NCBI GenBank assembly: GCA_035710305.1
Contig: DASTDQ010000142.1
Span: forward strand, 1-58,673
DNA from: Vicinamibacterales bacterium
GTDB taxonomy: Bacteria; Acidobacteriota; Vicinamibacteria; Vicinamibacterales; UBA2999
Reading direction: 5' to 3'
Length of the DNA: 58,673 bases
In this document: piece after piece, positions 10,861 to 23,231 of the stretch
Numbering within the stretch: position 1 is the first letter of the stretch
Layout: every line of letters starts with the position of its first letter
Notes under the pieces: model-generated
Database searches by the model: none
Told to the model about the DNA's origin: nothing
The model's input: only the letters and a program-made list of their open reading frames with translations
Translations under genes and position numbers: made by a program

Positions 10861-11333
10861 AGGTCAGCGTCCTGCAGAGTAAGCGTGTCTTCGAATTGCA
10901 GCGCCGCCCGAAAAACCGGAGTCGGCGCGACCGCATGCATCGACGAACGTATGACCGTTGCGCGGAGAACCTTGCGCACCCCGCCGTAGCGAAGGAAGAC
11001 GTCCACGGTTCGACCCGGACACAGTCTCTGACTCGTTTCGGCCAGAAGACCGGTAGACGATAGATTCACGAGCCGCATCGGAAAACCGGCGACGGCCAGC
11101 CGTATCTCGACTTTGAACTGATGTGGTTCGCGCCGTGGGGCGCCGCGTCGTTCCTTGCGCTGAGGCGGAGGTTCCGGAACCGGATCCGGCTTTGCCTCTG
11201 CGGGGGACTGAGCTTTGGCCGCGGCAGGGCTCTGCCAGGACGCCTCCAGACCGGCGAAAAGGTCGTCCAGAGACGCCTTCTCGGGAAGCTTGACGACCAT
11301 CTCGTCGTCGGAATCAGAGCCCGGATCGCTCAT
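10857..11333 (-). CDS. PilZ domain protein (c-di-GMP receptor motifs intact) with acidic/Pro-rich N-terminus
   Basis: RxxxR (RGAPR) and (D/N)xSxxG (NLSSTG) motifs are present. Its stop overlaps the start of the downstream pseudo-PilT gene by 4 nt. Confidence 0.8.
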   Translation of the reverse strand: MSDPGSDSDDEMVVKLPEKASLDDLFAGLEASWQSPAAAKAQSPAEAKPDPVPEPPPQRKERRGAPRREPHQFKVEIRLAVAGFPMRLVNLSSTGLLAETSQRLCPGRTVDVFLRYGGVRKVLRATVIRSSMHAVAPTPVFRAALQFEDTLTLQDADL

Positions 11334-11345
11334 GACCGCACAAAG

Positions 11346-11361
11346 TGCAACCTGGCTGCCG
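11346..11361 (-). promoter_or_regulatory. Candidate sigma54 promoter (minus strand reads CGGCAGCCAGGTTGCA)
   Basis: GG-N10-GC spacing with TTGCA at -12. It lies only about 13 nt upstream of the annotated PilZ ATG. This implies a near-leaderless transcript or use of the internal ATG at 11300. Confidence 0.4.
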
Positions 11362-11521
11362 GCCCCTCGAGACGTTTCTTGCGCAGGGCGATGTCAGAGT
11401 TGCATTAGAATTCACAGTAATTCCCTTGAGTAACGACCTATCATAGGCGAACGATGACTGAGTCGTCCTCCCAATCCTTGAAGTTCCGGATGACTCGCGG
11501 ACGAGAGGGGAGAGGCCGTCA

Positions 11522-11887
11522 ATGGCGAAGATCCTAGTCGTCGAAGACGACGATGCGACGCGGGCCGGCTACCGGGAACTCCTGAGCCGGGCAGGGCATG
11601 AGGTTGTCGCCACGGCTACCTACCAGGAAGGGCGGCACGCCGTCGCTACCGAGAGCCCAGACCTCGTGATCGCGGACTTGCGGCTGGGTGGATTCAACGG
11701 ACTCCAGTTATTGCTGCTCAGCCCGCAGCCGATCCCGACGATCATCGTGACCGGGTTTCATGATCAGGTTCTCGAGGCTGAGGCCAGGCGCGCGGGGGCC
11801 GATTACGTCGTCAAACCTGTCTCCCCCTCCAACCTCATGACCCTGGTCCGCGAAAGGCTCGAGAGTCAGGCTGCATCTGGACGCTGA
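11522..11887 (+). CDS. Stand-alone response-regulator receiver (CheY-like)
   Basis: 121 aa. Acidic pocket VEDDD, phospho-acceptor Asp in VIADLRL, conserved T (IIVTG) and K (VVKP). Confidence 0.9.
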   Translation: MAKILVVEDDDATRAGYRELLSRAGHEVVATATYQEGRHAVATESPDLVIADLRLGGFNGLQLLLLSPQPIPTIIVTGFHDQVLEAEARRAGADYVVKPVSPSNLMTLVRERLESQAASGR

Positions 11888-12063
11888 CAAATCTGCGCGC
11901 GGGAACCCGCTACCCTGAGCGCCACGGGAGAGTTCGCTTCCACGCGACATCGAGAACGATGACGCCTCCAAGCGTTAGTCACCCGGAACGCAACCTTTCT
12001 CCGTCTCAAACGCGCCAATCCCCTTTCGTTTGCGGCCTTCTTGGGCCAATCTTGTGCTCTTAC

Positions 12064-12079
12064 TGGCGACTGGCTTGCA
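12064..12079 (+). promoter_or_regulatory. sigma54 (-24/-12) promoter TGGCGACTGGCTTGCA
   Basis: Matches TGGCACG-N4-TTGCW in geometry, with GG at positions 2-3 and TTGCA at positions 12-16. The GC dinucleotide lies 30 nt upstream of the ATG at 12109. Identical at 13/16 positions to the site at 14296. Confidence 0.7.
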
Positions 12080-12108
12080 GGAGTCGAACGGCCACTTCCC
12101 AGCGCTGA

Positions 12109-13815
12109 ATGTCGAGCATCAAGAGTCAGTTACCGGTCGCACAGGAACCGACCCTCTTCGAGGGAGCGGTCCGTGACCGCTCGTGGGAATGGCTGCTCGA
12201 ACTGCGCCGCCGGCTCAAGGTCGAACTGCTGTTGGTGGATGGACGCTGTTCGGTACTGCTGCCCGCGCGGGATCAGGCGGCCCGCCTTCAGGGTCTGCTC
12301 GAACAAACTGAACCGGTCCTGGTGTCTGCCATCAACGCGACGCTGCGCAGCAGGACAGCCCACGTCGTGGAGCTTGGCGGGCTTCAGGCAGTCTGCCTGG
12401 CGATATCACGTGATCGGGGAGACGCCGGGGCACTACTCGTCGGCAGGACCGTTCCGCCGGGGCAGGACCCACGGGCCTCCCGCGATCAGCTCCAACTGGT
12501 TACCTCGTGGTTGGCCACGGCCGTCGAGGCGCACCTTCTCAGCCCGCCGTCGCTTCTTTCGAGTGGCTTGAGTCGAGTCGCTCCCCTGGCCCAGGTGTTC
12601 GGCCAGTGCGCGGAACACGAATCCGATCGCGAGCTCGTTCGACTGTTTGGCGAGGCGGTCGCCGTCTGGCACGACATCGAAGTTTGCGGGTACGTGGAGA
12701 CGTCCAATGGCGGCTTCGCCAGAGATGTGACACTGCCCGGCGCGAACAAGGGCGAAAGGCCCCTGTCGATTTCCGCCGAGGAGTTGCCCGAGGCGACCGA
12801 ACTCACGCGACTTCCTCACGGGCATCTCGACCGATTCGGACTCCCGGTGAGTTGCGACGTTTACGTGAGCCGGTTGGCCCGGGCTGCGGAGCGATCGTGG
12901 CTCCTCGTCTTCATCGGAGCCATTGACGACTACGATCTTCAGCGCCTCGGGGCGTATCTGGCGTTGCTGGAGTTAGCCCTTGCCTTGTCGACGTCGACGA
13001 TGACCACCCGCGTGGTGAACACGATCGGCAGCAGGCTCAGCGACGTTCAGCAGACGCCGGAGATGCGCACCAGGAATGCACTAGAGGAGCTCCGCCGAAC
13101 GCTCGGCGCGTCTTCGGCCGGTCTCAAGATCGAGTCGCCAGACGGGGCGCCCTTGTTCGACGCGCTGAGCCCCGACCTTGCCGACACGTCTCGCGCGGAC
13201 CCAGGTGCGTCGAGACTAGTGCTCGTCAAACGGTCCGAACAGCATTACACTACGACCGTTTCGCTCGGTCGCTATGAGAGTCGGCAGTTCACTCCACGAG
13301 ACTACGCCGTGGCGAGCGCTGCGGCGACCGTATTCGGGCTCTGGGTTCCTGCGACGTTGAGCACCGCTGCGGGTCGGCGCGAACGCCGGGCCCTGCCGCG
13401 CGGGTTTCAAGAAGTAATTGAACGGTCGGCCTGCGAGGCAATCGAACGAGGTGTGCCCGTCGCAGTCGTTGTTCTGCTGATTCGAGATGCCATATCGCTG
13501 CCCGGGTCCACCCAGCGTTGGGTGGCGGGCATTCGGGGTCAAATGAGGGCGTCGGACGTGGCCGGGATGCTGACAGAAGGAGAAATAGGACTCCTGTTGC
13601 ACGACATCGCCAACGAGCAGGCCAAGGCCATCGCCGAACGCCTCAGGACGGTGGTGAGCGGTGCGCCCGGACGGGAGGCGATTCTGATCGGTGTGGCCAG
13701 TTGGACGCCAGGCCAGGACCCGGCCGATGGTATTGTTCGCAGGGCCCGTGCAGATGCACTCGCCGACGGTCGGCGTGCTCAAGTGTCCGTTTCACCTCGC
13801 GGAGTGAACAGCTGA
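12109..13815 (+). CDS. Multi-sensor protein ending in a degenerate GGDEF domain that keeps its RxxD I-site (predicted c-di-GMP receptor, not a cyclase)
   Basis: The C-terminal fold-level pattern is GGDEF-like. The A-site reads TEGEI instead of GG(D/E)EF. RASD sits exactly 5 residues upstream, as in canonical I-sites. The N-terminal about 400 aa looks like tandem GAF/PocR-like sensor modules (weak). Confidence 0.65.
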   Translation: MSSIKSQLPVAQEPTLFEGAVRDRSWEWLLELRRRLKVELLLVDGRCSVLLPARDQAARLQGLLEQTEPVLVSAINATLRSRTAHVVELGGLQAVCLAISRDRGDAGALLVGRTVPPGQDPRASRDQLQLVTSWLATAVEAHLLSPPSLLSSGLSRVAPLAQVFGQCAEHESDRELVRLFGEAVAVWHDIEVCGYVETSNGGFARDVTLPGANKGERPLSISAEELPEATELTRLPHGHLDRFGLPVSCDVYVSRLARAAERSWLLVFIGAIDDYDLQRLGAYLALLELALALSTSTMTTRVVNTIGSRLSDVQQTPEMRTRNALEELRRTLGASSAGLKIESPDGAPLFDALSPDLADTSRADPGASRLVLVKRSEQHYTTTVSLGRYESRQFTPRDYAVASAAATVFGLWVPATLSTAAGRRERRALPRGFQEVIERSACEAIERGVPVAVVVLLIRDAISLPGSTQRWVAGIRGQMRASDVAGMLTEGEIGLLLHDIANEQAKAIAERLRTVVSGAPGREAILIGVASWTPGQDPADGIVRRARADALADGRRAQVSVSPRGVNS

Positions 13816-14132
13816 TGGCGTTGGGGGATCGACGTTCTCGCCTGCGCCTTGAAGTCGTCGGCGCGTTGTGGGCCACGTTGGAGCTGACAGAGCCCGCCCG
13901 GGTGGTGAATATCAGCCGGGATGGGGCGCTGATCACGTCACCCGTCCCAATGACACCAGAGTCGGTCCAGCCGCTTCATCTGAAGCTGGAGGGACGAGAG
14001 GTTACCGTGGATGCACGCGTTCGCCACATCCGTCGTGTGTCCGGACCGGACGAGCCCATCCGGTACCTCGTTGGAGTCGAGTTTCTTACAGTCCCTCCCG
14101 CACTCGCCCGCGCCACGGAATGGCCGTCGTGA
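13815..14132 (+). CDS. Single-domain PilZ protein
   Basis: RxxxR (RSRLR) and NxSxxG (NISRDG) motifs. The ATG overlaps the upstream stop (TGATG). The longer ORF from 13518 is an out-of-frame overlap with the upstream gene. Confidence 0.8.
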   Translation: MALGDRRSRLRLEVVGALWATLELTEPARVVNISRDGALITSPVPMTPESVQPLHLKLEGREVTVDARVRHIRRVSGPDEPIRYLVGVEFLTVPPALARATEWPS

Positions 14133-14295
14133 GACGCCAAAATCGTGTGAGGGAAAGTCTACCGCCTAGAGTGTCTTAGCCCGGACTTGCTCAGACTTTC
14201 TGAGGGGCAGTCTCGAGATCAGAGTCTTCGCGGGCCAGTTCATAAACATCAGAATATAAAAGACTTGCGTCGGCAGACAAACGTCTGCTTGACGA

Positions 14296-14311
14296 TGGCG
14301 ACTCACTTGCA
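14296..14311 (+). promoter_or_regulatory. sigma54 (-24/-12) promoter TGGCGACTCACTTGCA
   Basis: Exact GG-N10-GC geometry with TTGCA. Lies about 65 nt upstream of the PilZ-EBP operon start. It is preceded by an AT-rich tract (14241-14262) and a palindrome (14273-14288). Confidence 0.7.
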
Positions 14312-14377
14312 GCCTCGGCAGACTTCGGGAAACCCGTAGGACATGAACGAGTCCGCGCGGTGTGCGCGAGGAGACCG

Positions 14378-14689
14378 ATGGAGGAACGGCGGCGGACCCC
14401 ACGGCAGCAGGTCGGTGAGGAATTCGCAAATCTGCCAGGGAACATGAGCGTCCGGGTTCTGGACATCAGCACCGTCGGCGTGCTGATTCAGTCCCCCCGC
14501 CTGCTCAACCCGGGATCACGCGGAAGTCTGCGCTTCACGCTTGCCGGAGCACCCTTTGCGGCAGACATTCAAGTTCGGCGCGTGTCCTCGGCGTCCGACA
14601 ACGGATCCGGGTACCGCATTGGTGCGACATTCGTGGGAATGACCATGGATCACCGACAGCTGATTGAACGGTTCATGAACAATGATTGA
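14378..14689 (+). CDS. Single-domain PilZ protein
   Basis: RxxxR (RRTPR) and DxSxxG (DISTVG) motifs. The ATG at 14378 follows a GAGGAG Shine-Dalgarno sequence. An alternative GTG lies at 14360. The 3' end overlaps the EBP start by 8 nt. Confidence 0.8.
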   Translation: MEERRRTPRQQVGEEFANLPGNMSVRVLDISTVGVLIQSPRLLNPGSRGSLRFTLAGAPFAADIQVRRVSSASDNGSGYRIGATFVGMTMDHRQLIERFMNND

Positions 14690-15809
14690 TGGTGTAGCTG
14701 AAAGCAGCACTCGAGTCGGCGCGATTGGCCCGATTGGGGCGATTCGGCCCCGATCTCACGTCCAGCTCACTGGCCGCAGCGCCGAGGTTGTCGCACTCGA
14801 ACAAGAGATCGACCGGGTCGCCCGCTCCGACGCCAAGGTTCTGATCACGGGCGAAAGCGGTGTCGGCAAGGAGATCGTCGCACGCGCGATTCACTCGCGA
14901 GGGCCTCGGTCCGGACACGTGTTTGCGCCGGTCAACTGCGCCGGTCTTCCCGAAACGCTGCTTGAATCCGAACTGTTCGGGCACGTCAAGGGCAGCTTCA
15001 CGGGGGCCTACCGCGACAAGCCTGGCAAGTTGGAAACGGCTCACATGGGTACGATCTTCCTCGACGAAGTCGGGGAGATGACGCTCCGGATGCAGGGCTT
15101 GCTTCTGCGCTTCCTGGAGACGGGTGAGCTTCAGAAGGTTGGAGCCGATGGGAGCGGCCGCATCGTCAACGTTCGCGTCATCGCGGCGACCAACCGTGAT
15201 CTGCGCGACATGATCAAGCAGGGAACCTTCAGAGAGGACCTGTTCTATCGGCTCAACGTCATCCACATCGTTGTGCCACCGCTTCGGGACCGTCGCGAGG
15301 ATATCCCGGTACTCGCGAACCAGTTCCTGTCCCACTTCACGACTGCCGGGCGATCCACGATCACGGGGATTTCCTCGGATGCGATGAAGGCCCTGATCGA
15401 GTACTCGTGGCCGGGTAATGTGCGCGAACTCGAGAACGTCATCGAGCGCCTCGTCGTCACCGTCAGCGGTCCGACGATCGAGACCGAGCATCTCTCATCG
15501 GAGATCAGAGCCTACGATGCCGTAATGCTCCGGCCCAAGCGGGAGCGACGGCGCACCGTGGCCGACGATCTGTACAAGCGCATGCTCGAGCAACACGAAT
15601 CGTTCTGGACGGCCGTGTACCCGCTGTTCATGGACCGCGAGATTACGCGAGCGAACTTGCGCGAGGTCGTCCGCCGCGGCCTCGAGGAAGCGCGGGGCAA
15701 CTACAAGATCGTGGCCCGCCTCTTCAACATGGAGGCGCGCGATTACAAGCGGTTCCTGAACTTCCTCCGGAAACACGACTGCCAGATCCCCTTCAAGGAA
15801 TACCGCTGA
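14682..15809 (+). CDS. sigma54-dependent enhancer-binding protein lacking any receiver/sensor domain (AAA+ core plus C-terminal Fis-like HTH)
   Basis: Walker A GESGVGKE, sigma54-contact loop GSFTGA (variant of GAFTGA), Walker B FLDEVGEM, R-finger region FREDLFYRLN. C-terminus GNYKIVARLFNMEARDYKRFLNFLRKH. Only about 30 aa precede the AAA+ core. Confidence 0.9.
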   Translation: MIDGVAESSTRVGAIGPIGAIRPRSHVQLTGRSAEVVALEQEIDRVARSDAKVLITGESGVGKEIVARAIHSRGPRSGHVFAPVNCAGLPETLLESELFGHVKGSFTGAYRDKPGKLETAHMGTIFLDEVGEMTLRMQGLLLRFLETGELQKVGADGSGRIVNVRVIAATNRDLRDMIKQGTFREDLFYRLNVIHIVVPPLRDRREDIPVLANQFLSHFTTAGRSTITGISSDAMKALIEYSWPGNVRELENVIERLVVTVSGPTIETEHLSSEIRAYDAVMLRPKRERRRTVADDLYKRMLEQHESFWTAVYPLFMDREITRANLREVVRRGLEEARGNYKIVARLFNMEARDYKRFLNFLRKHDCQIPFKEYR

Positions 15810-15908
15810 CCGGACCTCCTCGACGGCTCGACAACCTCGGGCCGTCGCGGGCCCATCGCACACCACCGGTTTCGCCAAGGCCCCGGTTTGCCGCAGCGGG
15901 GACGCCGG

Positions 15909-15924
15909 AGGCACGGTTGTTGCC
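15909..15924 (+). promoter_or_regulatory. sigma54 (-24/-12) promoter AGGCACGGTTGTTGCC
   Basis: GGCACG-N4-TTGC is a near-perfect match to the consensus. Lies about 80 nt upstream of the GTG start at 16004, which has a GAGGAG Shine-Dalgarno sequence. Confidence 0.7.
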
Positions 15925-16003
15925 AACTCATCAGGGCTGTGTGGCCGAGCCTGTCCGAAGGTGTTTCGACACAAGGGATTAGCCAGACCCTCCGAGGAGT
16001 CTC

Positions 16004-17536
16004 GTGACAAGGGACTCCCAAAGAGGGACCCAATTTCTGCCTGACGGAGGACTTCATCGGCTGATGCCGTCTCATGAAGCCGGCCCTGGCAGTCGTCACC
16101 TGTCCGAAGGGCAGCGCCAGTTGCTCCTCGAGCTGCACCTCAAAATCGACCGTACGTCCCCACCGCGTGAATTCCTCCGTGGGCTCGTCAACGCAATCAG
16201 CGAAGCCCTGCAGACGACCGTAGCAGTGGTCGGACGGAACGGAGATGTCTGGGTGCGAGCGGCCGCGTCGGGCCCCGCCACCCCGCGTCTGCCACTTCAG
16301 TCCGAGGGTTGGCCTCAGATCTTCGACCGCCTGAGCGCGACGGCAGGCGCACAGCTGGAGCTCTGGCGCACCGGAAGTGAGGATTGGACCTTGTTCGGAC
16401 TGGCAAGGGCGCCCCATACGCCGGTGATTCTCATTCTCGAAGGGGACTGGACGCATTGGGCCGCTGTCCTTCAACAGATGGCACAAGGTCTGTCGATCGG
16501 GGATGTCCGTGACCTCTCGCAAGCACGGCCGCTCGACAGCATCCTCCAGCGACTGTCGCACGCACTCGCCGACACTGTGGGGTTGGCCGAAGTCGGCGAA
16601 GTCGTGCTTCGGCATGTGATTCAAGCCGTGCCGAGTCGGCTGGCTTCCTTGGCGTCCGCAGCCCCCGACGGCGAACTCTCAATCGTGGCCACCCAGGGCT
16701 ATCCGCGCGAACTGGTCCAGCACCTTCGAATCGCGTCCGGCAACGGCGTGATAGGAGCAGTCCACCTCTCCAGGACACCGTTGGTCGTCTCAGACGTGTC
16801 GCTGACCCCGGGCCTTGACCGTCATCGGTCGAGGTATCGATCCAACTCGTTTGTGGCGGTTCCAATCGTAGCGGGGTCCGAAACGCTTGGCGTCGTATCG
16901 CTGACCGACCGAGTCGCCTCGGGCCCCTATACGCAGGGAGACGTCGCGGCAATCACCGTGTTGATGGGTCCGGCTGCGCTTGCGCTGGCGCGCGAACGCG
17001 TCAGACAGGAGGCCCTCGCCTACGCGCAGGCAGCCGTCGTCGACCCAGTGAGTGGCCTGTTCAACCGCCGGTATTTCGAGGCGCGTCTCGACGAGGAATT
17101 ACACCGCGCGGTTCGTCAGCTCACGTCCGTGGCGCTCTTGATGGTAGACCTGGATGAGTTCAAGGCGGTGAACGATCGCTTCGGACACATCGCCGGCGAC
17201 CTGGTGATTCGGGACATTTCGGAGATTCTTCGCCGGTCGGTGCGTATTTTCGATGTCTGCACGCGGTTCGGGGGCGAGGAGTTCGCGGTGATGATGCCCG
17301 GCGGCACCGTTGAAAGCGCAAGCGCAATTGCCGAGCGCATCCGCCATAGGGTTGAGGCTTATCAGCGGAACGAGCCGAGCTTGGCGGGACTACACGTCAC
17401 CGCGAGTATCGGCGTCGCGGTGTCTCCCCCCGGTGTTACTGCCCGAGACCTTATGGAACGGGCAGATCGTGCGCTCTACCATGCGAAGAAGGCTGGCAAG
17501 AATCGCGTCAGTACCGCCGGCACAGACCCGGTCTGA
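16004..17536 (+). CDS. GAF-domain diguanylate cyclase (GGDEF)
   Basis: Intact GGEEF A-site with an RIFD I-site 5 residues upstream. A GAF-like region (VPIVAGSETLGVVSLTD) precedes it. Confidence 0.9.
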   Translation: MTRDSQRGTQFLPDGGLHRLMPSHEAGPGSRHLSEGQRQLLLELHLKIDRTSPPREFLRGLVNAISEALQTTVAVVGRNGDVWVRAAASGPATPRLPLQSEGWPQIFDRLSATAGAQLELWRTGSEDWTLFGLARAPHTPVILILEGDWTHWAAVLQQMAQGLSIGDVRDLSQARPLDSILQRLSHALADTVGLAEVGEVVLRHVIQAVPSRLASLASAAPDGELSIVATQGYPRELVQHLRIASGNGVIGAVHLSRTPLVVSDVSLTPGLDRHRSRYRSNSFVAVPIVAGSETLGVVSLTDRVASGPYTQGDVAAITVLMGPAALALARERVRQEALAYAQAAVVDPVSGLFNRRYFEARLDEELHRAVRQLTSVALLMVDLDEFKAVNDRFGHIAGDLVIRDISEILRRSVRIFDVCTRFGGEEFAVMMPGGTVESASAIAERIRHRVEAYQRNEPSLAGLHVTASIGVAVSPPGVTARDLMERADRALYHAKKAGKNRVSTAGTDPV

Positions 17537-17556
17537 CCTGCCTGGTCTGACCTGCC
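17530..17556. repeat. Tandem duplication of 13 nt GGTCTGACCTGCC (period 14) spanning the cyclase stop codon
   Basis: Read directly. Copies are at 17530-17542 and 17544-17556. The TGA stop (17534-17536) lies in copy 1. Confidence 0.9.
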
Positions 17557-17838
17557 CAGATTCCGAATCCCTCAGAAAATCAGCAAACGCGGGTGCCCCC
17601 CCCAACAAATCGACCTGCCGGCCTCAGAAATCCACCTTTCGTGGCATGACTGACGACAGATCGTGGCGACGCCGATCCGAGCAGACTTGTGCAAAAAGTC
17701 AGAAGTTCGATCAGGCCCCCCAAGACGTTTAATACTGTAATTGTCTCTAGATCACCGAATTAGCGCAAAAGCGTGATCTTTAGGACGCTTTTCGACCACT
17801 TCTCAGTTGACCTTAGTCTCGTTAAAAAGGCAGACTTA

Positions 17839-17887
17839 TTCCCTCTGAATTAGCAAAGAACCTTTTCCCTCTGAATTAGCAAAGAAC
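17839..17887. repeat. Two perfect 23-nt direct repeats TTCCCTCTGAATTAGCAAAGAAC (period 26) in an AT-rich leader/promoter
   Basis: Copies are at 17839-17861 and 17865-17887, ending 17 nt before the EBP2 ATG. A third GAATTAGC core lies at 17757-17764 inside a 7-bp inverted repeat (17749-17755 / 17773-17779). Confidence 0.9.
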
Positions 17888-17904
17888 TTTGGAGCTTATC
17901 CCGA

Positions 17905-19098
17905 ATGTCGACACTTTCTCTACCCCGAATGCCGAAAAACCTGCCACTGCTGCTCGGCGAGAGTCCAGCCATCAGCTCTCTGCGACGTGAAATCGAGGCG
18001 GCGGCCAGGACCGACGCGAAAGTCCTCGTTCTCGGCGAAACGGGATCGGGCAAGGAAGTCGTCGCGCGACTGATTCACGAGCAGAGTGGACGTTCGTCGC
18101 GCGCGTTTGTCGCTGTCAACTGCAGCGGCATCCCTGAGACCCTCCTCGAATCCGAGCTGTTCGGTCACACACGAGGCAGCTTCACGGGCGCTTACCGCGA
18201 CAAGCCAGGGCTGGTGCGGCAAGCCGACAGAGGCACGCTGTTCCTCGACGAGCTCGGAGAGATGAGTCTCAGGATGCAGGCAGTCCTGCTGAGATTCGCC
18301 GAGACTGGCGAGATCCAGACGATCGGCGTCGACGGTGTGACGGGTCGTTCCGACGTGCGCCTCATCACGGCGACGAACCGAAACCTTCGCGAGCGGATCG
18401 ATGCTGGCGTGTTCCGCGAGGACCTGTACTTCAGGCTCAACATCATTCAGATTCATGTCCCGCCCCTGCGCGAACGAACCGAGGACGTGATGCTGCTGCT
18501 GCGTCATTACCTGCGCAGAGCCAGCGAGACGCATCGCCTCGCGTATCCGGAGTTGACGCTGGACGCCGAGCAGGTGCTCGCCTCGTATGCCTGGCCAGGC
18601 AACGTTCGCGAACTGAAGAACCTCGCGGAGCGCTTGGTCGTGCGCGAGTGGGATCGCGCCATTGGCGCCAACGATCTTCCTGCCGAGATCCGTGGAGGGC
18701 GCGACACTGTCTCGACCTCGCCGAGCTCCAGCGTGACGTTCAATCAGGACAGCGTGCCTACCGCGCGACGGCTCGAGCGAGGCTCCGGAACAGCCGATCG
18801 CTTGTGGGAACGTCTGATCGCGGGCGAGAGCTTCTGGACCGTTGTACACCAGCCGTTCAAAGCGCACGAACTCACGCGGGATGACCTCGCCGCTTTGATT
18901 CATCGCGGGCTCGAGCACACGAGAGGAAGCTATCGTGCTCTGCTCGGCGTGTTCGGTCTCCCGCCGACGGACTACAAGCGCTTCCACGCGTTCTTGTATC
19001 AGCAGAACTGCAACTTGCCTGTTGGACCGTATCGCACCGCGAGAGCAACACTGCGCCGGCAAGATCGGCCCGCGTCGGTGTACACACCGGCCTGCTGA
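17905..19098 (+). CDS. sigma54-dependent enhancer-binding protein, receiver-less paralog of 14682-15809
   Basis: GETGSGKE, GSFTGAYRDKPG (identical loop context to the paralog), FLDELGEM. Shares the C-terminal ESFWT...DYKRF...N motif block. GGAG lies 10 nt before the ATG. Confidence 0.9.
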   Translation: MSTLSLPRMPKNLPLLLGESPAISSLRREIEAAARTDAKVLVLGETGSGKEVVARLIHEQSGRSSRAFVAVNCSGIPETLLESELFGHTRGSFTGAYRDKPGLVRQADRGTLFLDELGEMSLRMQAVLLRFAETGEIQTIGVDGVTGRSDVRLITATNRNLRERIDAGVFREDLYFRLNIIQIHVPPLRERTEDVMLLLRHYLRRASETHRLAYPELTLDAEQVLASYAWPGNVRELKNLAERLVVREWDRAIGANDLPAEIRGGRDTVSTSPSSSVTFNQDSVPTARRLERGSGTADRLWERLIAGESFWTVVHQPFKAHELTRDDLAALIHRGLEHTRGSYRALLGVFGLPPTDYKRFHAFLYQQNCNLPVGPYRTARATLRRQDRPASVYTPAC

Positions 19099-19130
19099 TC
19101 GCTGGCAGTAAATCAGGAGCAGCGTTGGGG

Positions 19131-19158
19131 CGTCTGTCGCCCCACGCTGGTCCCGCCT
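19131..19158. terminator. GC-rich hairpin between convergent genes (candidate bidirectional terminator)
   Basis: 11-bp stem (one bulge) AGCGT-t-GGGGCG / CGCCCCACGCT with a 5-nt loop. No clear U-tract. Confidence 0.45.
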
Positions 19159-19160
19159 GA

Positions 19161-19514
19161 TCAGTCCTCCCGCAGAAGCGCGTTCAGCGCTTGATCTTCC
19201 CCGGTGGTGTCGAAATCGTAGATGAGGGCCTGCTCGAAACACGCGAGGAAACGAGCCCCTAGTTGCTGGTGTGCCGAGTGATCCAGATACGCACGCAGCC
19301 CGGCGACGTCGTCGAACTCCAGAAACGCGGCGTGCGTGTAGTCGTCCTTCATCAGTTGCTCGTAGGACCTCCCGAGCAGCGTCCGCCGGCCGATTCGCGC
19401 CCGCTTGATGGACGGGATTTCCTTGATTGCGGTTGAGAACGCGTCAACGAGAGCCCGCCGGTCGGCGGTGGACAGTCGGGCCTTCGGCCTGAACAAAACG
19501 GCGTGAACAATCAT
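19161..19514 (-). CDS. Dabb (stress-responsive alpha/beta barrel) family protein
   Basis: About 117 aa. The N-terminus MIVHAVLFRPK and the overall pattern are typical of Dabb domains. Confidence 0.7.
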   Translation of the reverse strand: MIVHAVLFRPKARLSTADRRALVDAFSTAIKEIPSIKRARIGRRTLLGRSYEQLMKDDYTHAAFLEFDDVAGLRAYLDHSAHQQLGARFLACFEQALIYDFDTTGEDQALNALLRED

Positions 19515-19933
19515 CGACGAGACCCTTTTCCGGGCCGCCGGTCGCGTCCGCTACTGCTCCTCGGAGCGGGCCGTGATGGGTCAGCCGGTGTGGGATTGAC
19601 GTCCCGCGCCGCATGCTTGCGCTCGAAGCGAAGCTCGCGGCGCTTCTGATTTCGAGCGCGCCTCGTCGCCTCGACCTTCTCTCGTGGGTCACGATGTTCT
19701 CCGCCGGGCCGCCATTCCCGGCCGCGTCTGAGCGCCGTCGCCGACAGCGACGCTTCACGCGCGGCTTCCTCCGAAGGCCAGAGCCTTCCTCGAGCGAACC
19801 ATTTCATGACGGCGTCGGGGTGGCGGTCCTGCAGGCGCTTAAGCGTCGGCAGGAGATCATCTTTGGAAGCCGCGCGAAAGGAGGTTGGCAGCCCCCCGGC
19901 GAGGATCGTCCAGTACGCGTATCGTGGCGGCAT
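19511..19933 (-). CDS. Hypothetical basic protein
   Basis: Coding-like N-terminal 70 aa and an Arg/Lys-rich tail. 4-nt overlap with the downstream Dabb gene. No domain recognised. Confidence 0.5.
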   Translation of the reverse strand: MPPRYAYWTILAGGLPTSFRAASKDDLLPTLKRLQDRHPDAVMKWFARGRLWPSEEAAREASLSATALRRGREWRPGGEHRDPREKVEATRRARNQKRRELRFERKHAARDVNPTPADPSRPAPRSSSGRDRRPGKGSRR

Positions 19934-19956
19934 TCGTTTCTCTCGCTGCTCCGCGA

Positions 19957-21363
19957 TCAGTCGGGTCCGATCCTCTTCAACTTCTCCACCAGCGTCGTCC
20001 TCTTGATGCGCAGCAACTCGGCGGCGCGATTCCGATTTCCACCGGTGCGGTCGAGTGCGCGCCCGATCAAGTCACGCTCGACGGCGGCGAGGTAGGCCGG
20101 CATGTCCATCCCTCCTTCCGGAAAGTCCACGAGGGGCATGGCCGTTGCCGGGGGGGTCACCTGGATTTCGGCAGGCAGGTCCGCCATTTCAATATGCTGC
20201 CGTCCCGCGCTCAGGGCCACCGCCCGCTCGACAGCGTTTTCCAGCTGACGGACGTTCCCGGGCCACTGATAGGCCATCAACGCACGCATCGCATCCTGCG
20301 ATACCTGCATCTGCGACCCGGGCGCAAACTTCTGCAGGAAGTGCTGCGCGAGAACCGGGATGTCATCGCGCCTGTCCCGCAATGGTGGCAAGTGAATGGG
20401 AATCACGTGAAGTCGGTAGTAGAGATCTTCCCGGAACGTTCCTTCGGCGACCATTCGCGCAAGGTCAGAATTGGTGGCTGCGATGACCCGCACATCCACC
20501 TTGATCGTCTGGTTGTCACCGACCCGCTCGAACTCGCGCTCCTGGAGTGCGCGGAGCAGCTTCATCTGAAGAGCGGTACTCATGGTCCCGACTTCGTCGA
20601 GGAAGAGCGTCCCCTTGTGGGCCTGCTCGAAGCGTCCCTGACGTGCGCCGATCGCGCCCGTGAAGGCCCCGCGCACGTGCCCGAAGAGTTCAGCCTCGAG
20701 CAGAGTCTCGGGTATCGCGCTGCAGTTCAAGGCGACGAATCGATGTGCGCGGCGAGGGCTGTTGTGGTGAATCGCTCTCGCCACGACCTCCTTGCCGGTT
20801 CCCGTCTCTCCGGTGATCAGGATCGTGCTGCTGGATCGCGCCACCGTCTCCAGAAGATGAAACAGCTTCTGCATTGGCCGGCTGCGGCCGAGGATGCCGC
20901 CGAACTGGTAGCGGTCCTCGAGCTGTGAACGGAGGTACGCGTTTTCCGATCGGAGCCGCCGATCTTCAAGCGCCTTGTGCAGCACGTGCGAGAGCTCGTC
21001 GAACTGAAAGGGCTTGGCGATGAAATCCGATGCGCCCCGCTTGATGGCGTCGACCGCGTCCTTGACGGTGCCGAAGCCTGTAATGACGATGGCCACGATG
21101 CCGGGGTAGCGCTCTCGAGCGGACTCGATAACCCTGGACCCATTGACTCCGGGCAGCCTCAAGTCCGTAATCACCACGTCGAACGCAAACTTCTCCAGGA
21201 GCTCCAGCGCCCGTTCTCCGCTTTCGGCCTGAACGACCTCGAAGCCACGCTCGGTCAGGCGTTCGGCCATGACCCCGCGAAGCGCGGTTTCGTCGTCCAC
21301 GAACAGGATATGGGGGATGGTTCCGGCGGCAGCCACAGCGCCAATATCTTGACACAGCCCCAA
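19957..21363 (-). CDS. NtrC-family response regulator (REC + sigma54 AAA+ + Fis HTH)
   Basis: Receiver ILFVDDE...VITDLRLPG, GETGTGKE, canonical GAFTGA, and C-terminal HTH GGNRNRAAELLRIKRTTLVEKLKR. The start could be TTG 21363 or GTG 21336. Confidence 0.9.
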   Translation of the reverse strand: MGLCQDIGAVAAAGTIPHILFVDDETALRGVMAERLTERGFEVVQAESGERALELLEKFAFDVVITDLRLPGVNGSRVIESARERYPGIVAIVITGFGTVKDAVDAIKRGASDFIAKPFQFDELSHVLHKALEDRRLRSENAYLRSQLEDRYQFGGILGRSRPMQKLFHLLETVARSSSTILITGETGTGKEVVARAIHHNSPRRAHRFVALNCSAIPETLLEAELFGHVRGAFTGAIGARQGRFEQAHKGTLFLDEVGTMSTALQMKLLRALQEREFERVGDNQTIKVDVRVIAATNSDLARMVAEGTFREDLYYRLHVIPIHLPPLRDRRDDIPVLAQHFLQKFAPGSQMQVSQDAMRALMAYQWPGNVRQLENAVERAVALSAGRQHIEMADLPAEIQVTPPATAMPLVDFPEGGMDMPAYLAAVERDLIGRALDRTGGNRNRAAELLRIKRTTLVEKLKRIGPD

Positions 21364-21365
21364 AC

Positions 21366-21393
21366 TAAGGATCGGTCAGGGAGCGGCCGATAC
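21366..21393 (+). promoter_or_regulatory. Possible sigma28/FliA-type promoter TAAG-N16-GCCGATAC
   Basis: Resembles TAAA-N15-GCCGATAA. Lies 80 nt upstream of the HTH gene that precedes the FliA-type sigma gene. The same 8-mer also occurs by chance elsewhere, so this is weak. Confidence 0.3.
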
Positions 21394-21472
21394 AGCAGTC
21401 GAACGAGCTCGGCGGGTCAAAGTGGTCCGCCGGCGTTACTAACGGCCGTCTCCAGGAGGCCCGTGAGACTAT

Positions 21473-21688
21473 ATGGACCGCCAGACCCTCTCAATCATGA
21501 AGGCGTGTGAAGCCGTCGGAGTCAGCCGGCGAACCATTTACAACTGGATTTCTGCCGGCAAGGTCGAATACGTCCGGACAGCCGGGGGCTCGATTCGCAT
21601 CTTCGCCGACACCCTGTGGCGCGACGCAGCGACGCCGGCCCGGACCCAGGAATCGGATTCTCGAACGGCGCCTGGACAGCACGCGTGA
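21473..21688 (+). CDS. Small MerR/excisionase-type (HTH_17-like) DNA-binding protein
   Basis: The stretch ACEAVGVSRRTIYNWISAGKV matches the HTH_17 pattern. 71 aa. Confidence 0.7.
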   Translation: MDRQTLSIMKACEAVGVSRRTIYNWISAGKVEYVRTAGGSIRIFADTLWRDAATPARTQESDSRTAPGQHA

Positions 21689-21924
21689 GCGTCCCTCAGG
21701 GGGTCGATGGCGTCGGCGACGTGCCGGCTAACCTCGACCTTCAGGCGTTGTTTCATCGCCTGAACAATCAGCTCGGGTCTCTCCTCGCCCACGCCGAGCT
21801 CCTCGAAACCAAGGCCCCTGACGACGTCAATCGGGCGCGCGCGGCCCAGGTCGTCAGGAGTACCCTCGATGCGATGGGCACCGTTCGAGCGATTTATCAT
21901 CAAACGGACCCTTCCGGCGAGTAG
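21685..21924 (+). CDS. DHp-only mini-protein with a HisKA_2-like H-box (no ATPase domain)
   Basis: FHRLNNQLGSLLAHAELL resembles the HRxxNxLQ H-box. The GTG start overlaps the upstream stop (GTGA). The longer ORF from 21616 overlaps the HTH gene. Confidence 0.5.
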   Translation: MSVPQGVDGVGDVPANLDLQALFHRLNNQLGSLLAHAELLETKAPDDVNRARAAQVVRSTLDAMGTVRAIYHQTDPSGE

Positions 21925-22179
21925 CCGGCTCGTTTCAGCACATCGACGGCGAGCCCTGATTCATTCCTGAGAATCTACTCAGATCCGTAATTCTGCTGTC
22001 ATCAACTTGGCGGGGACGTTGTTGTTTCCGTCAATCTGTTGGCGATTTTAGCGGTCTTTTGCCCGATTGGAAGCTCGACAGAATCGTCAGACGAGCACTG
22101 GTAAGTGGCTGTCCTGATAGTCACTTAGCTCGGGTTTTCTCACGAGATTGCACTGGGATGCGCGCCGATTCGCCCCAGT

Positions 22180-22195
22180 TGGTACCACGGTTGCC
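22180..22195 (+). promoter_or_regulatory. sigma54 (-24/-12) promoter TGGTACCACGGTTGCC
   Basis: GG-N10-GC geometry with TTGC. The GC lies 26 nt upstream of the ATG at 22221. The GGAGG Shine-Dalgarno at 22208-22212 would sit in a short leader. Confidence 0.6.
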
Positions 22196-22220: not shown

Positions 22221-23231
22221 ATGCGCCCCCAGATCAACTCCGAGAACCCGAGGGTTCTCGCCAGCATCCCCTTCGTGGAGCAGCTCGCCCGGCGAGTCGC
22301 CGCCACCATGCCCCATTCCATCGACATCGGCGACCTGGTGCAGGACGGGGTCATTGGGCTCATCGACGCCGCGCATCGCTTCGACGAGGCGAGAGGCATC
22401 AAGTTCGAAACCTTCGCGGAACGCCGCATTCGCGGCGCCATGATTGACGCACTACGGAAGGATGCCTGGCCCCGCGGAGTCCGACGGCAACGCCGCGAGC
22501 TCGAAGCCGCGCGCGAGGAGCTCCGGAGAGAGCTGGGGCATGAACCGTCGCTGGCGGATCTGGCGGCCAAGGTCGGGTCGGACGAAAAACGGCTGGGCAG
22601 GACGATTGTGCGAATCAACGCCATCGAATCGACCTCTCCACTTGCCAACAACGATCACCTCGACGAGTCGACGCTGCCCACCGCGTTGATACCTTCAGAG
22701 CCCGAACAGCCGGACGCCGCGTACGAGCGACAGGAAACGAAGGACCGCGTGTGCGCGGCCATCGCTTCGCTTCCGCCGCGCGAGCAGAAGGTGATCGGCC
22801 TCTACTACTACGGCGAAGCCACGATGAAGCAGATCGGCGCTGAAATCGGCGTGAACGAGTCCCGCGTGTCGCAGCTGCATGCGCGCGCCATCAGACGGCT
22901 TCGCGATGCGCTCGGCACGCTGGTGCCCGGAGCCGAGGTCGCCAAGGTCATGAGGAGCGCGATCCTCGAGTTCCAGCAGAAACCGCGTATGGCCAAGGCG
23001 ACATTGGACAGCCGCCAGGCGGTTGCCGGGACAGAACGGCTTGGCGTCGTGGTCAACTACGCCAGCGCTTCACGAACGTTGCGCAGCAAGTCGCCGAGCC
23101 GGAAGGGTTTGGCCAGCCAGCGGCAGCCGCTCTCCTCGAGAAAGCGCTCCGCGTCGGCTCCTGCCACGTCGCCGGTCACAAAGATGACGCGCCGGGCGAG
23201 CGCCGGCGTCGCTGCGGCAATCGCGCGATAG
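22221..23231 (+). CDS. fliA: FliA/WhiG-type (group 3) sigma factor with an about 100-aa C-terminal extension
   Basis: Region 2 DLVQDGVIGLIDAAHRFD...FETFAERRIRGAMIDALR. Region 4 YYYGEATMKQIGAEIGVNESRVSQLHARAIRRLR. The ATG at 22221 follows GGAGG. The frame stays open to 23231 and overlaps the convergent kinase gene by 175 nt. Confidence 0.8.
   Translation: MRPQINSENPRVLASIPFVEQLARRVAATMPHSIDIGDLVQDGVIGLIDAAHRFDEARGIKFETFAERRIRGAMIDALRKDAWPRGVRRQRRELEAAREELRRELGHEPSLADLAAKVGSDEKRLGRTIVRINAIESTSPLANNDHLDESTLPTALIPSEPEQPDAAYERQETKDRVCAAIASLPPREQKVIGLYYYGEATMKQIGAEIGVNESRVSQLHARAIRRLRDALGTLVPGAEVAKVMRSAILEFQQKPRMAKATLDSRQAVAGTERLGVVVNYASASRTLRSKSPSRKGLASQRQPLSSRKRSASAPATSPVTKMTRRASAGVAAAIAR

What the first reader, a model, noticed from the sequence alone, without database searches (positions are those of the whole stretch)
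11346..22195. Five sigma54-geometry promoters clustered in one locus, two of them near-identical
All five sites keep GG-N10-GC with TTGC at -12. They are 12064 TGGCGACTGGCTTGCA, 14296 TGGCGACTCACTTGCA, 15909 AGGCACGGTTGTTGCC, 22180 TGGTACCACGGTTGCC and, on the minus strand, 11346-11361 CGGCAGCCAGGTTGCA. Each lies 13-80 nt upstream of the first gene of an operon. Those operons are the degenerate GGDEF plus PilZ, the PilZ plus EBP, the GAF-GGDEF cyclase, the FliA-type sigma gene and the PilZ plus pseudo-PilT. The 12064 and 14296 sites share 13/16 positions, including an identical TGGCGACT -24 half. This hints at co-regulation by the same activator. I found no comparable sites in the other intergenic regions I read. 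rpoN itself is not in the window.
Basis: seen in the sequence. Interest (0 to 1): 0.65.

Follow-up and report, generated by a model that had tools for sequence, protein, structure and literature searches.

The report
Conserved sigma-54 promoter cluster in Acidobacteria
The five short DNA signals that look like start sites for sigma-54 RNA polymerase are really there, and at least four are kept intact in 12-16 related soil acidobacterial species, so they are very likely genuine promoters of a conserved signalling gene cluster: a well-supported but ordinary kind of regulatory element.

Summary
All five GG-N10-GC/TTGC sites exist at the stated coordinates, each 12-79 nt upstream of the first gene of an operon and facing it. 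The loose pattern is not enriched in the window as a whole (28 found, 30 expected). It is enriched in the locus's 1.7 kb of intergenic DNA: 5 found, about 0.9 expected.

The decisive evidence is comparative. The whole cluster is syntenic in 15 species-level Vicinamibacterales (Acidobacteriota) MAGs. In four promoters GG and TTGC are 100% conserved (12-16 species) at a fixed distance from the gene, while flanks are about 50% identical and, in one promoter, the spacer varies freely. The fifth site (11346, minus strand) is kept in 9/13 relatives and implies an almost leaderless mRNA.

Three activator (EBP) genes with intact GAFTGA/GSFTGA loops lie in the locus. Conserved candidate enhancer sites lie upstream of two promoters.

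The two sites share 14/16 positions, not 13/16. The shared spacer is not conserved, and activators read upstream sites, not the core promoter.

rpoN presence and the transcription starts could not be tested. Verdict: real sigma-54 promoters, new members of a known kind, in a conserved c-di-GMP/sigma-54/FliA-WhiG regulatory island.

The parts
11346..11361 (-). Sigma-54-type -24/-12 element CGGCAGCCAGGTTGCA in front of the PilZ(158 aa)/PilT-like operon. Predicted +1 is near 11335, only 2 nt before the ATG at 11333.
   Evidence: CGGCA-N6-TTGCW is kept in 9/13 relatives and in the more distant L018. The GC is lost in L011/L013/L014, and L005 has a 1-nt insertion.
12064..12079 (+). Sigma-54-type promoter TGGCGACTGGCTTGCA of the 568-aa (degenerate GGDEF) + PilZ operon. 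Predicted +1 is near 12090 and the ATG is at 12109.
   Evidence: TGGC-N7-TTGCA is present in 16/16 species, with spacer identity 44-88% and flanks about 50%.
14296..14311 (+). Sigma-54-type promoter TGGCGACTCACTTGCA of the PilZ(103 aa)-EBP1 operon. Predicted +1 is near 14322 and the ATG is at 14378.
   Evidence: TGGCGACTYRCTTGCA in 16/16 species and TGGCGACTTGATTGCA in L018. Metatranscriptome contigs begin at 14338 and 14351, with no cover from 13987 to 14334.
15909..15924 (+). Sigma-54-type promoter AGGCACGGTTGTTGCC of the GAF-GGDEF cyclase gene. Predicted +1 is near 15935 and the GTG is at 16004.
   Evidence: Best PWM hit of the whole window at 14.0 bits. RGGYAYRSTTGTTGCC in 15/15 species, 71-83 nt before the start, and in L018.
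22180..22195 (+). Sigma-54-type promoter TGGTACCACGGTTGCC of the FliA/WhiG-family sigma gene. Predicted +1 is near 22206, GGAGG lies at 22208-22212 and the ATG is at 22221.
   Evidence: TGGTACyNNNGTTGCC in 12/12 species, 25 nt before the ATG in 11 of them and 31 nt in one.
14682..15809 (+). EBP1: AAA+ sigma-54 activator with no N-terminal sensor domain and a GSFTGA loop. Its start overlaps the end of the PilZ gene at 14378-14689.
   Evidence: 91-94% identical in relatives. GSFTGA in 15/15.
17905..19098 (+). EBP2: paralogue of EBP1 (47% identity, same C-terminal domain), no sensor domain, GSFTGA loop. No canonical sigma-54 site lies upstream.
19957..21336 (-). NtrC-type response-regulator EBP (REC-AAA+-HTH_8) with a GAFTGA loop.
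   Evidence: GAFTGA in 11/11 orthologues.
21998..22044 (+). Two copies of GTCA-N5-TTGGCG (21998-22012 and 22030-22044), about 200 and 170 bp upstream of the predicted fliA start. Candidate enhancer (UAS).
   Evidence: The only exact matches in the window apart from 21339-21353. The same three-site layout occurs in 11/12 relatives that hold this region; in L011 the second fliA-proximal copy is absent. Only one extra hit turned up in all 16 sequences searched.
21338..21353 (-). Third copy of GTCA-N5-TTGGC, at the 5' end of the NtrC-type EBP gene. Candidate autoregulatory operator.
14152..14200 (.). Convergent pair GGAAAGTCT ... CAGACTTTC (AAGTCT at 14155-14160, AGACTT at 14193-14198), about 125-165 bp upstream of the predicted PilZ-EBP1 start. 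Candidate enhancer.
   Evidence: Same 38-nt spacing in 16/16 species. AGACTT occurs 2.5 times per 300 nt here against 0.10 background.
14272..14289 (.). Palindrome GGCAGAC-AAAC-GTCTGC, ending 6 nt upstream of the TGGC of the -24 element of the PilZ-EBP1 promoter.
   Evidence: AGACAAACGTCT is nearly invariant in 16/16 species.
9259..11333 (-). Operon served by the 11346 site: PilZ (10857-11333) and a PilT-like protein without Walker A (9259-10860).
12109..14132 (+). Operon served by the 12064 site: 568-aa protein with a faint C-terminal GGDEF-like match (12109-13815) and PilZ (13815-14132).
16004..17536 (+). GAF-GGDEF diguanylate cyclase (GGEEF), served by the 15909 site.
22221..23231 (+). FliA/WhiG-family sigma factor gene, served by the 22180 site.
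   Evidence: TIGR02479: 199.9 bits against a cut-off of 189.6. It has the highest depth of the locus in the X27 metatranscriptome (43) and is among the highest in X30 (18-21).

Best explanation
The locus is a conserved regulatory island of soil Vicinamibacterales (Acidobacteriota). At least four, and probably five, operons in it are transcribed from sigma-54 (-24/-12) promoters. Sigma-54 RNA polymerase would sit on each GG-N10-GC element as a closed complex. It would fire only when a hexameric AAA+ activator, bound to upstream sites, remodels it using ATP. Three such activators are encoded in the locus. Shown here: the sites exist, face genes at promoter distance, and are under purifying selection at exactly the sigma-54 contact bases. 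The activators keep their sigma-54 contact loop. Inferred: the NtrC-type response regulator binds the three conserved GTCA-N5-TTGGC sites, turning on the FliA/WhiG sigma gene and regulating itself. The sensor-less paralogues EBP1/EBP2 bind the AGACTT-type repeats upstream of the PilZ-EBP1 operon and of EBP2. The outputs are a diguanylate cyclase, PilZ c-di-GMP receptors, a degenerate PilT-like protein and a second alternative sigma factor. Together these would form a c-di-GMP-linked sigma-54 to sigma-28-type cascade.
For: The sites are verified at the stated coordinates. The locus intergenic DNA holds 5 sites against 0.8-0.9 expected, reached in 2-3/1000 shuffles. The 15909 site is the top PWM hit of the 58.7-kb window. 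The cluster is syntenic in 15 species-representative MAGs. GG/GC identity is 1.00 in four promoters (n = 16, 16, 15, 12), against about 0.5 for 10-14 nt flanks. The spacer of the 568-aa promoter is only 44-88% conserved, and the distance to the start codon is fixed. Three of the sites persist in a more distant relative in which the 568-aa homologue is only 33% identical. The control regions upstream of REC, the NtrC-type gene, HTH and Dabb show no conserved block at all. Upstream of EBP2 there is no canonical site, only a conserved GG-N10-CC block. A fourth EBP present in some relatives carries its own high-scoring site of 12.3-13.2 bits. The three EBPs have Sigma54_activat domains and GSFTGA/GAFTGA loops conserved in 15/15, 15/15 and 11/11. 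A-to-S at position 2 of the loop occurs in the validated activator LevR (PMC3162934). Candidate enhancers sit at typical distances and are conserved. RNA contigs from two metatranscriptomes start 16-29 nt downstream of the predicted PilZ-EBP1 start, with no cover upstream. fliA is well expressed, with no RNA cover of the 330 nt upstream in three of four runs. No E. coli-type sigma-70 consensus precedes these genes.
Against: rpoN was not found in the window, and I could not check it in these genomes. No transcription start is mapped. The RNA evidence comes from assembled contigs only, and one contig (X32, 22101-22264) spans the fliA site, implying either an additional upstream start or DNA carry-over. 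Four of the five sites score only 8.9-10.7 bits with a generic PWM, and 12 coding positions score as well. The PWM frequencies were approximated from memory of the published consensus. The 11346 site would give a 2-nt leader with no ribosome-binding site, and it has lost its GC in three or four relatives. Assigning particular activators to particular promoters is inference from motif co-occurrence only.
Confidence: 0.8

Rival explanations
1. The five matches are chance occurrences of a short degenerate pattern in a GC-rich genome.
For: GG-N8-TTGC is at chance level in the window as a whole (28 against 29.8). TGGC-N7-TTGC with one mismatch is also at chance (48 against 48.9). Coding hits score equally with the PWM.
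Against: The intergenic DNA of the locus is enriched. All five sites face a gene start. GG and TTGC are invariant in 12-16 species while the flanks diverge to about 50%, and three sites persist in a more distant relative.
Confidence: 0.02
2. The conserved blocks are functional but are not sigma-54 promoters. They could be operators for other transcription factors, or parts of promoters read by another sigma factor, that happen to fit GG-N10-GC.
For: No start site is mapped and rpoN is unverified. In the PilZ-EBP1, GGDEF and fliA sites the spacer is also largely conserved (0.90-0.91), as an operator would be. The 15909 site has palindromic ends (GGCA...TGCC). One RNA contig spans the fliA site.
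Against: Five different upstream regions, and a sixth in relatives, all fit the same two-block geometry with exact spacing. In the 568-aa promoter only the sigma-54 contact bases are fixed. The reverse-strand reading of the 15909 site is not conserved. Three to four EBPs with intact sigma-54 contact loops are encoded alongside.
Confidence: 0.1
3. Only four of the five are sigma-54 promoters. The 11346 element is a lineage-variable feature of the divergent PilZ/REC intergenic region and not the promoter of the PilZ/PilT-like operon.
For: The predicted start is 2 nt before the ATG (4-8 nt in most relatives) and there is no Shine-Dalgarno sequence. The GC is lost in L011, L013 and L014, and L005 has an insertion. 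In L009/L012 the same 16-mer lies on the opposite strand next to a remnant of the gene.
Against: CGGCA-N6-TTGCW is kept in 9/13 relatives at a fixed position and in the distant L018, 24 nt before the start. Leaderless mRNAs are translatable in bacteria (general knowledge).
Confidence: 0.3
4. One reading: the 12064 and 14296 promoters are driven by the same activator.
For: The two sites are 14/16 identical in the window. GTCTGCC recurs upstream of both operons in relatives, at 0.56 and 0.94 per 300 nt against 0.08 background.
Against: Core-promoter similarity does not report activator identity (established knowledge of sigma-54 systems). The spacer similarity is not conserved, at a mean of 3.4/7 across 16 species. 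The AAGTCT/AGACTT pair of the 14296 region is absent upstream of 12064, at 0.06 per 300 nt. The GTCTGCC copy upstream of 12064 is degenerate in the window.
Confidence: 0.3

Closest known systems
Sigma-54 (RpoN) -24/-12 promoters, consensus TGGCACG-N4-TTGCW (consensus from my own knowledge of the Barrios et al. 1999 compilation; general properties in PMC3162934)
   Same: GG and GC doublets are exactly 10 nt apart, with TTGC at -15..-12. The sites lie upstream of genes, EBPs are encoded nearby, and candidate enhancer sites lie 125-200 bp upstream.
   Different: None of the five matches the full consensus. -22/-21 is GA in two sites and -23 is T in the fliA site. Dependence on RpoN and the start sites are untested. 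The host lineage (Vicinamibacterales) has no experimentally studied sigma-54 regulon that I could find.
Polar-flagellum hierarchies of Vibrio and Pseudomonas, where sigma-54 plus the EBP FlrA/FleQ drive class II genes including fliA, and c-di-GMP binds the EBP (PMC6504787)
   Same: An alternative sigma of the FliA/WhiG family sits behind a sigma-54 promoter. Several EBPs form a cascade. c-di-GMP components are interwoven.
   Different: There are no flagellar or chemotaxis genes in the 58.7-kb window. c-di-GMP would be sensed by separate PilZ proteins rather than by the EBP. The targets of the sigma factor are unknown.
Sensor-less (class Ic) EBPs PspF and HrpR/S, controlled in trans by partner proteins (class definition in PMC3162934; the PspA and HrpV partners are from my own knowledge)
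   Same: EBP1 and EBP2 consist of an AAA+ domain plus a C-terminal DNA-binding region only. EBP1 aligns end to end with the PspF model (TIGR02974, residues 30-365 on positions 2-336 of 336). EBP1 sits behind a sigma-54 promoter with a small co-transcribed partner gene.
   Different: The partner is a PilZ c-di-GMP receptor, not PspA or HrpV. No interaction has been shown. The relative L018 has EBP1 without the PilZ gene.
Streptomyces sigma-WhiG with the c-di-GMP-binding anti-sigma RsiG (from my own knowledge)
   Same: A FliA/WhiG-family sigma factor embedded in c-di-GMP signalling in a lineage not known for flagella.
   Different: No RsiG-like gene was identified. Here the link would be transcriptional, through sigma-54.

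Membership tests
Sigma-54-dependent promoter | GG at -24 and GC at -12, exactly 10 nt apart, with TTGC-type -12 box | tested here: met
   All five sites meet it.
Sigma-54-dependent promoter | Located upstream of, and oriented towards, a gene at promoter distance | tested here: met
   The sites lie 12-79 nt before the start codons and all have the correct strand.
Sigma-54-dependent promoter | Contact bases under selection (conserved in orthologous regions while surrounding DNA diverges) | tested here: met
   GG/GC are 100% conserved in four promoters (n = 12-16) and 90% in the fifth. Flanks are about 50% identical. Three sites persist in the distant L018.
Sigma-54-dependent promoter | rpoN present in the same genome | not testable with these tools
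   rpoN is not in the window. Presence is inferred from conserved EBPs and from the near-universal presence of sigma-54 in diderm LPS bacteria (PMC3162934).
Sigma-54-dependent promoter | Cognate AAA+ activator with intact GAFTGA-type loop | tested here: met
   Three EBPs are in the locus. GSFTGA, GSFTGA and GAFTGA are conserved in 15/15, 15/15 and 11/11.
Sigma-54-dependent promoter | Upstream activator (enhancer) sites about 80-200 bp from the promoter | tested here: inconclusive
   Conserved repeated motifs lie at -170/-200 (fliA) and -125/-165 (PilZ-EBP1). None was identified for the other three promoters, and binding is untested.
Sigma-54-dependent promoter | Transcription start 10-14 nt downstream of the GC doublet, dependent on RpoN | tested here: inconclusive
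   Only assembled metatranscriptome contigs were available. Contig ends at 14338 and 14351 are compatible with a start near 14322. One contig spans the fliA site.
Sigma-54 to sigma-28 flagellar hierarchy (FlrA/FleQ type) | fliA-family sigma gene behind a sigma-54 promoter | tested here: met
   TIGR02479 is passed, and the conserved site lies 25 nt before the ATG.
Sigma-54 to sigma-28 flagellar hierarchy (FlrA/FleQ type) | Flagellar structural and chemotaxis genes as targets | tested here: not met
   None is in the window or in the 21-kb loci. The rest of the genome was not seen.
Sensor-less class Ic EBP (PspF/HrpRS type) | AAA+ domain plus DNA-binding region and no N-terminal regulatory domain | tested here: met
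   The Sigma54_activat domain starts at residue 30 in EBP1 and residue 16 in EBP2. EBP1 aligns end to end with the PspF model, whereas EBP2 matches it only over the AAA+ part (residues 16-251).
Sensor-less class Ic EBP (PspF/HrpRS type) | Activity controlled in trans by a partner protein | not testable with these tools
   The only evidence is a conserved gene overlap of PilZ and EBP1 in 16/16 species. The PilZ gene is absent in L018.

The most novel reading that the evidence does not exclude
The stand-alone PilZ proteins encoded next to the sensor-less activators act in trans as their missing regulatory domain. c-di-GMP made by the sigma-54-driven GAF-GGDEF cyclase would then gate EBP1/EBP2 and, through them and the NtrC-type regulator, a FliA/WhiG-family sigma factor. 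That would be a self-contained route from c-di-GMP to PilZ to EBP to sigma-54 to sigma-28. It would be a way of coupling c-di-GMP to sigma-54 that differs from direct binding to the EBP, as in FleQ and FlrA. It would operate in an abundant, almost unstudied soil lineage that is not known to be flagellated.
Probability: 0.2. Interest if true: 0.7.

Novelty: new member of a known kind. Interest (0 to 1): 0.4.

Why it matters
Vicinamibacterales are among the commonest soil bacteria, yet I found no experimental work on their gene regulation. This locus gives five to six well-footprinted sigma-54 promoters, three to four activators and candidate enhancer motifs. It is a ready-made, testable wiring diagram for how these organisms couple c-di-GMP signalling to alternative sigma factors. 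For sigma-54 biology it adds no new principle. The possibly new element is the recurrent pairing of PilZ receptors with sensor-less activators, which remains an inference.

Tried and rejected
- **Pattern counts over the whole window**. My first pattern had the wrong spacing (N9). The correct N8 pattern shows no window-wide enrichment, so this test alone neither supports nor refutes the finding.
- **Generic PWM**. It separates only the 15909 site from the coding background. Its frequencies were approximated from memory, so I used it only for ranking.
- **Single-protein scan of genome contigs**. It found nothing. An alignment-based scan was needed.
- **Rfam scan of 11000-23500 at E <= 1**. No RNA family, so the conserved leaders are not known riboswitches such as the c-di-GMP classes.
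- **Metatranscriptome contigs**. They show expression but cannot map starts. The apparent joints between 15190-15196 and 18406-18411 are assembly chimeras across conserved AAA+ words.
- **Sigma-70 and terminator consensus scan**. Nothing informative.
- **PDB sequence search with the EBP1 C-terminal domain**. It hit only a designed repeat protein, which is irrelevant.
- **Literature searches** for PilZ with EBPs, and for Vicinamibacter or Acidobacteria with sigma-54. No prior description.
- **A FliA-type autoregulatory promoter.** The conserved ...GCCGATTC block just upstream of the fliA site resembles a sigma-28 -10 box, but the -35 TAAA is missing, so I did not claim it.
- **The minus-strand reading of the 15909 site** (TGGCAACAACCGTGCC). 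Rejected because it is not conserved.

Full report
**The observation**

Reading the sequence confirms all five elements at the stated coordinates.
- 12064-12079: TGGCGACTGGCTTGCA
- 14296-14311: TGGCGACTCACTTGCA
- 15909-15924: AGGCACGGTTGTTGCC
- 22180-22195: TGGTACCACGGTTGCC
- 11346-11361, minus strand: CGGCAGCCAGGTTGCA

Each has GG and GC doublets exactly 10 nt apart, with TTGC at the -12 box. The 12064 and 14296 sites agree at 14 of 16 positions.

**Gene content**

- 10857-11333 (-): PilZ protein. It is followed by 9259-10860 (-), a PilT-like protein (87.8 bits to TIGR01420, far below the cut-off) with no Walker A motif.
- 11522-11887: a lone receiver domain.
- 12109-13815: a 568-aa protein with only a faint C-terminal GGDEF-like match, followed by a PilZ gene at 13815-14132.
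- 14378-14689: a PilZ gene whose end overlaps the start of an EBP gene, 14682-15809 (EBP1).
- 16004-17536: a GAF-GGDEF cyclase with GGEEF.
- 17905-19098: a second sensor-less EBP (EBP2).
- 19957-21336 (-): an NtrC-type REC-AAA+-HTH_8 activator.
- 22221-23231: a sigma factor that passes the FliA_WhiG model (199.9 bits against 189.6).

All three PilZ proteins keep the RxxxR and D/NxSxxG motifs. EBP1 and EBP2 carry GSFTGA and the NtrC-type protein carries GAFTGA. None of the ORFs I scanned across the window is a sigma-54 gene. The window starts with parA-parB, so it is origin-proximal.

**Is it more than chance?**

The bare pattern is not enriched. GG-N8-TTGC occurs 28 times on both strands, against 29.8 +/- 5.1 in dinucleotide shuffles. 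I also scanned with a consensus-derived PWM whose frequencies I approximated from memory of the published compilation. The 15909 site is the best hit of the window at 14.0 bits. The other four score 8.9-10.7 bits, and 12 coding positions score as high.

Location changes the picture. All five sites lie in the 1,733 nt of intergenic DNA of this locus. Shuffles of those same segments give 0.8-0.9 sites, and only 2-3 of 1000 shuffles reach five. All five face a start codon 12-79 nt away.

**Comparative test**

The 568-aa protein has hundreds of homologues in soil metagenomes. An alignment-based scan of species-representative genomes returned 15 loci, all from MAGs titled Vicinamibacteria, Vicinamibacterales or Acidobacteriota. 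The whole cluster, from dus to the hybrid kinase, is syntenic in them. I took 300 nt upstream of each orthologous start and compared them.
- **568-aa operon:** TGGC-N7-TTGCA in 16/16. Individual spacer positions are only 44-88% identical, and the 10-14 nt flanks are 48-54% identical. This is the classic footprint of a two-block promoter.
- **PilZ-EBP1 operon:** TGGCGACTYRCTTGCA in 16/16.
- **Cyclase gene:** RGGYAYRSTTGTTGCC in 15/15, 71-83 nt before the start.
- **Sigma gene:** TGGTACyNNNGTTGCC in 12/12, 25 nt before the ATG in 11 and 31 nt in one.
- **PilZ/PilT-like operon:** CGGCA-N6-TTGCW in 9/13. The GC is lost in L011, L013 and L014, and L005 has a 1-nt insertion.

The control regions upstream of the receiver gene, the NtrC-type gene, the HTH gene and the Dabb gene show no conserved block. 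Upstream of EBP2 there is no canonical GG-N10-GC site, but there is a conserved GG-N10-CC block, described under "Seen in passing".

Two extensions strengthen the picture. Relatives that carry a fourth EBP gene have a further high-scoring site in front of it, TGGAKTGATAMTTGCT at 12.3-13.2 bits. A more distant relative, L018, has a 568-aa homologue only 33% identical and a PilT-like protein 42% identical. It still has the PilZ, EBP1 and cyclase sites in place. The sigma-54 contact loops of the three activators are invariant in all orthologues. The A-to-S change at position 2 of the loop is known from the functional activator LevR (PMC3162934).

**Candidate enhancers**

GTCA-N5-TTGGCG has exactly three perfect matches in the 58.7-kb window: 21339-21353 (-), 21998-22012 and 22030-22044. 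The slightly relaxed GTCA-N5-TTGGC gives the same layout in 11 of the 12 relatives that contain this region. One copy lies at the 5' end of the NtrC-type gene. Two copies lie 31-33 bp apart, about 170 and 200 bp upstream of the predicted sigma-gene start. In L011 the second of those two copies is absent. Only one additional hit turned up in all 16 sequences searched. The simplest reading is that the adjacent NtrC-type regulator binds these sites, regulating itself and activating the sigma-gene promoter. This is inference.

Upstream of the PilZ-EBP1 promoter, a convergent pair AAGTCT...AGACTT at a constant 38-nt spacing is present in 16/16 species. AGACTT occurs 2.5 times per 300 nt there against 0.10 in the background, and it is also enriched upstream of EBP2. 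The palindrome GGYAGAC-AAAC-GTCTRCC ends a few bases upstream of the -24 element. EBP1 and EBP2 are paralogues with the same unusual C-terminal domain, so either could bind these sites.

**RNA evidence**

Only assembled contigs of soil metatranscriptomes were available. They show that EBP1, EBP2, the HTH/small-gene pair and the sigma gene are expressed. The sigma gene has the highest depth of the locus in X27 (43) and is among the highest in X30.
- **PilZ-EBP1:** contigs from two independent runs begin at 14338 and 14351, and nothing covers 13987-14334. This is compatible with a start near the predicted 14322.
- **Sigma gene:** three runs show no cover between 21939 and about 22270. One contig (X32, 22101-22264) spans the -24/-12 site, implying either a second upstream start or DNA carry-over.

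This evidence is compatible with the model but not decisive.

**The co-regulation hint**

The near-identity of the 12064 and 14296 core elements says little about activators, because sigma-54 itself reads these bases. It is also not a conserved property. Counting, the seven spacer positions of the two promoters agree at 5 in the window but at 3.4 on average across 16 species (range 1-5).

A separate observation keeps the idea alive. GTCTGCC recurs upstream of the 568-aa operon, the PilZ-EBP1 operon and EBP2 in most relatives, at 0.56-0.94 per 300 nt against 0.08 background. The copy upstream of the 568-aa gene has decayed in the window.

**The weak point**

The 11346 element would start transcription about 2 nt before the ATG (4-8 nt in most relatives), with no ribosome-binding site. 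The N-terminal codons ATGAGCGAT are conserved, so the start codon is probably right. The mRNA would then be leaderless. I rate this site as probable rather than established.

**Comparison with known systems**

The elements behave as ordinary sigma-54 promoters. The architecture resembles the polar-flagellum hierarchies, in which sigma-54 and FlrA/FleQ drive fliA and c-di-GMP acts on the activator (PMC6504787). However, no flagellar genes are in view. EBP1 and EBP2 resemble the sensor-less class Ic activators PspF and HrpR/S (PMC3162934; PspF model alignment). I found no paper describing sigma-54 regulation in Vicinamibacterales or PilZ-EBP gene pairs.

**Seen in passing**

- The best conserved non-coding DNA of the locus is a block of about 130 nt upstream of EBP2. 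It contains AGGCAGACTTATTCCC, a sigma-54-like -24 box with CC instead of GC at -12.
- A 26-nt tandem duplication (17834-17885) is unique to the window lineage.
- The sigma ORF overlaps the convergent kinase gene by 175 nt, and this overlap is conserved.

**Verdict**

Four sites are very likely genuine sigma-54 promoters and the fifth probably is. The inference about a shared activator is unsupported as argued. The finding adds new members to a known kind of element, within a conserved and so far undescribed c-di-GMP/sigma-54/FliA-WhiG regulatory island.

Noticed in passing
window 17700-17860: A non-coding block of about 130 nt upstream of EBP2 is almost invariant in 16/16 relatives. It holds GACTTT repeats, TTGACC and AGGCAGACTTATTCCC, which is GG-N10-CC: a sigma-54-like -24 box with CC instead of GC at -12, 32-35 nt before the ATG. 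There is no Rfam match. Its function is unknown.
   Followed up: partly
window 17834-17885: A perfect-register 26-nt tandem duplication (ACTTATTCCCTCTGAATTAGCAAAGA / ACCTTTTCCCTCTGAATTAGCAAAGA) lies in the EBP2 leader. It is absent from all 15 relatives.
   Followed up: partly
window 23057-23231: The FliA/WhiG ORF has a basic, Ser-rich C-terminal extension of about 100 aa. This extension overlaps the 3' end of the convergent hybrid histidine kinase gene by 175 nt. The frame stays open and about 94% identical in relatives.
   Followed up: partly
window 21338-21353, 21998-22012, 22030-22044: GTCA-N5-TTGGC occurs exactly three times per locus in the window and in 11 of the 12 relatives that hold this region (L011 has two copies), and almost nowhere else. 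One copy lies at the NtrC-type gene and two lie upstream of the fliA promoter.
   Followed up: yes
L004 8516, L009 8511, L013 8517: Some relatives carry a fourth EBP gene, preceded in L004 by a PilZ-like ORF, between the receiver gene and the 568-aa gene. It has its own strong sigma-54-type site, TGGAKTGATAMTTGCT.
   Followed up: partly
L009 7315-7355 (also L012): The PilZ/PilT-like operon is missing here and only an ATGAGCG remnant is left. The identical 16-mer CGGCAGCCAGGTTGCA lies on the opposite strand inside a perfect palindrome, CCAGGTTGCACAACCTGG, facing the receiver gene.
   Followed up: partly
L018 5809-6001: In a more distant relative, EBP1 keeps its TGGCGACT...TTGCA site but has no PilZ gene between promoter and start (176-nt leader). 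The PilZ-EBP pairing is therefore not obligatory.
   Followed up: partly
window 22140-22178: A conserved block, CACG..GTTGCACTGGGATGCGCGCCGATTC, lies directly upstream of the fliA -24 box. Its 3' end resembles a sigma-28 -10 box (GCCGATAA), but no TAAA -35 is present. One RNA contig (X32, 22101-22264) covers this region.
   Followed up: partly
window 170-1857: parA and parB open the window, so the regulatory island lies about 10-20 kb from the partition genes. It is probably close to the replication origin.
   Followed up: no
window 15190-15196 joined to 18406-18411 in RNA contigs: Metatranscriptome contigs join EBP1 to EBP2 through 25-36 unrelated letters. These look like chimeric assemblies across conserved AAA+ words of other EBP genes, not real transcripts.
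   Followed up: no
window 25286-28813 and 37619-39427: More signalling genes lie downstream. They are a second GGDEF protein, a tandem-GAF SpoIIE/PP2C phosphatase and another SpoIIE-type phosphatase. None has a canonical sigma-54 site upstream.
   Followed up: partly
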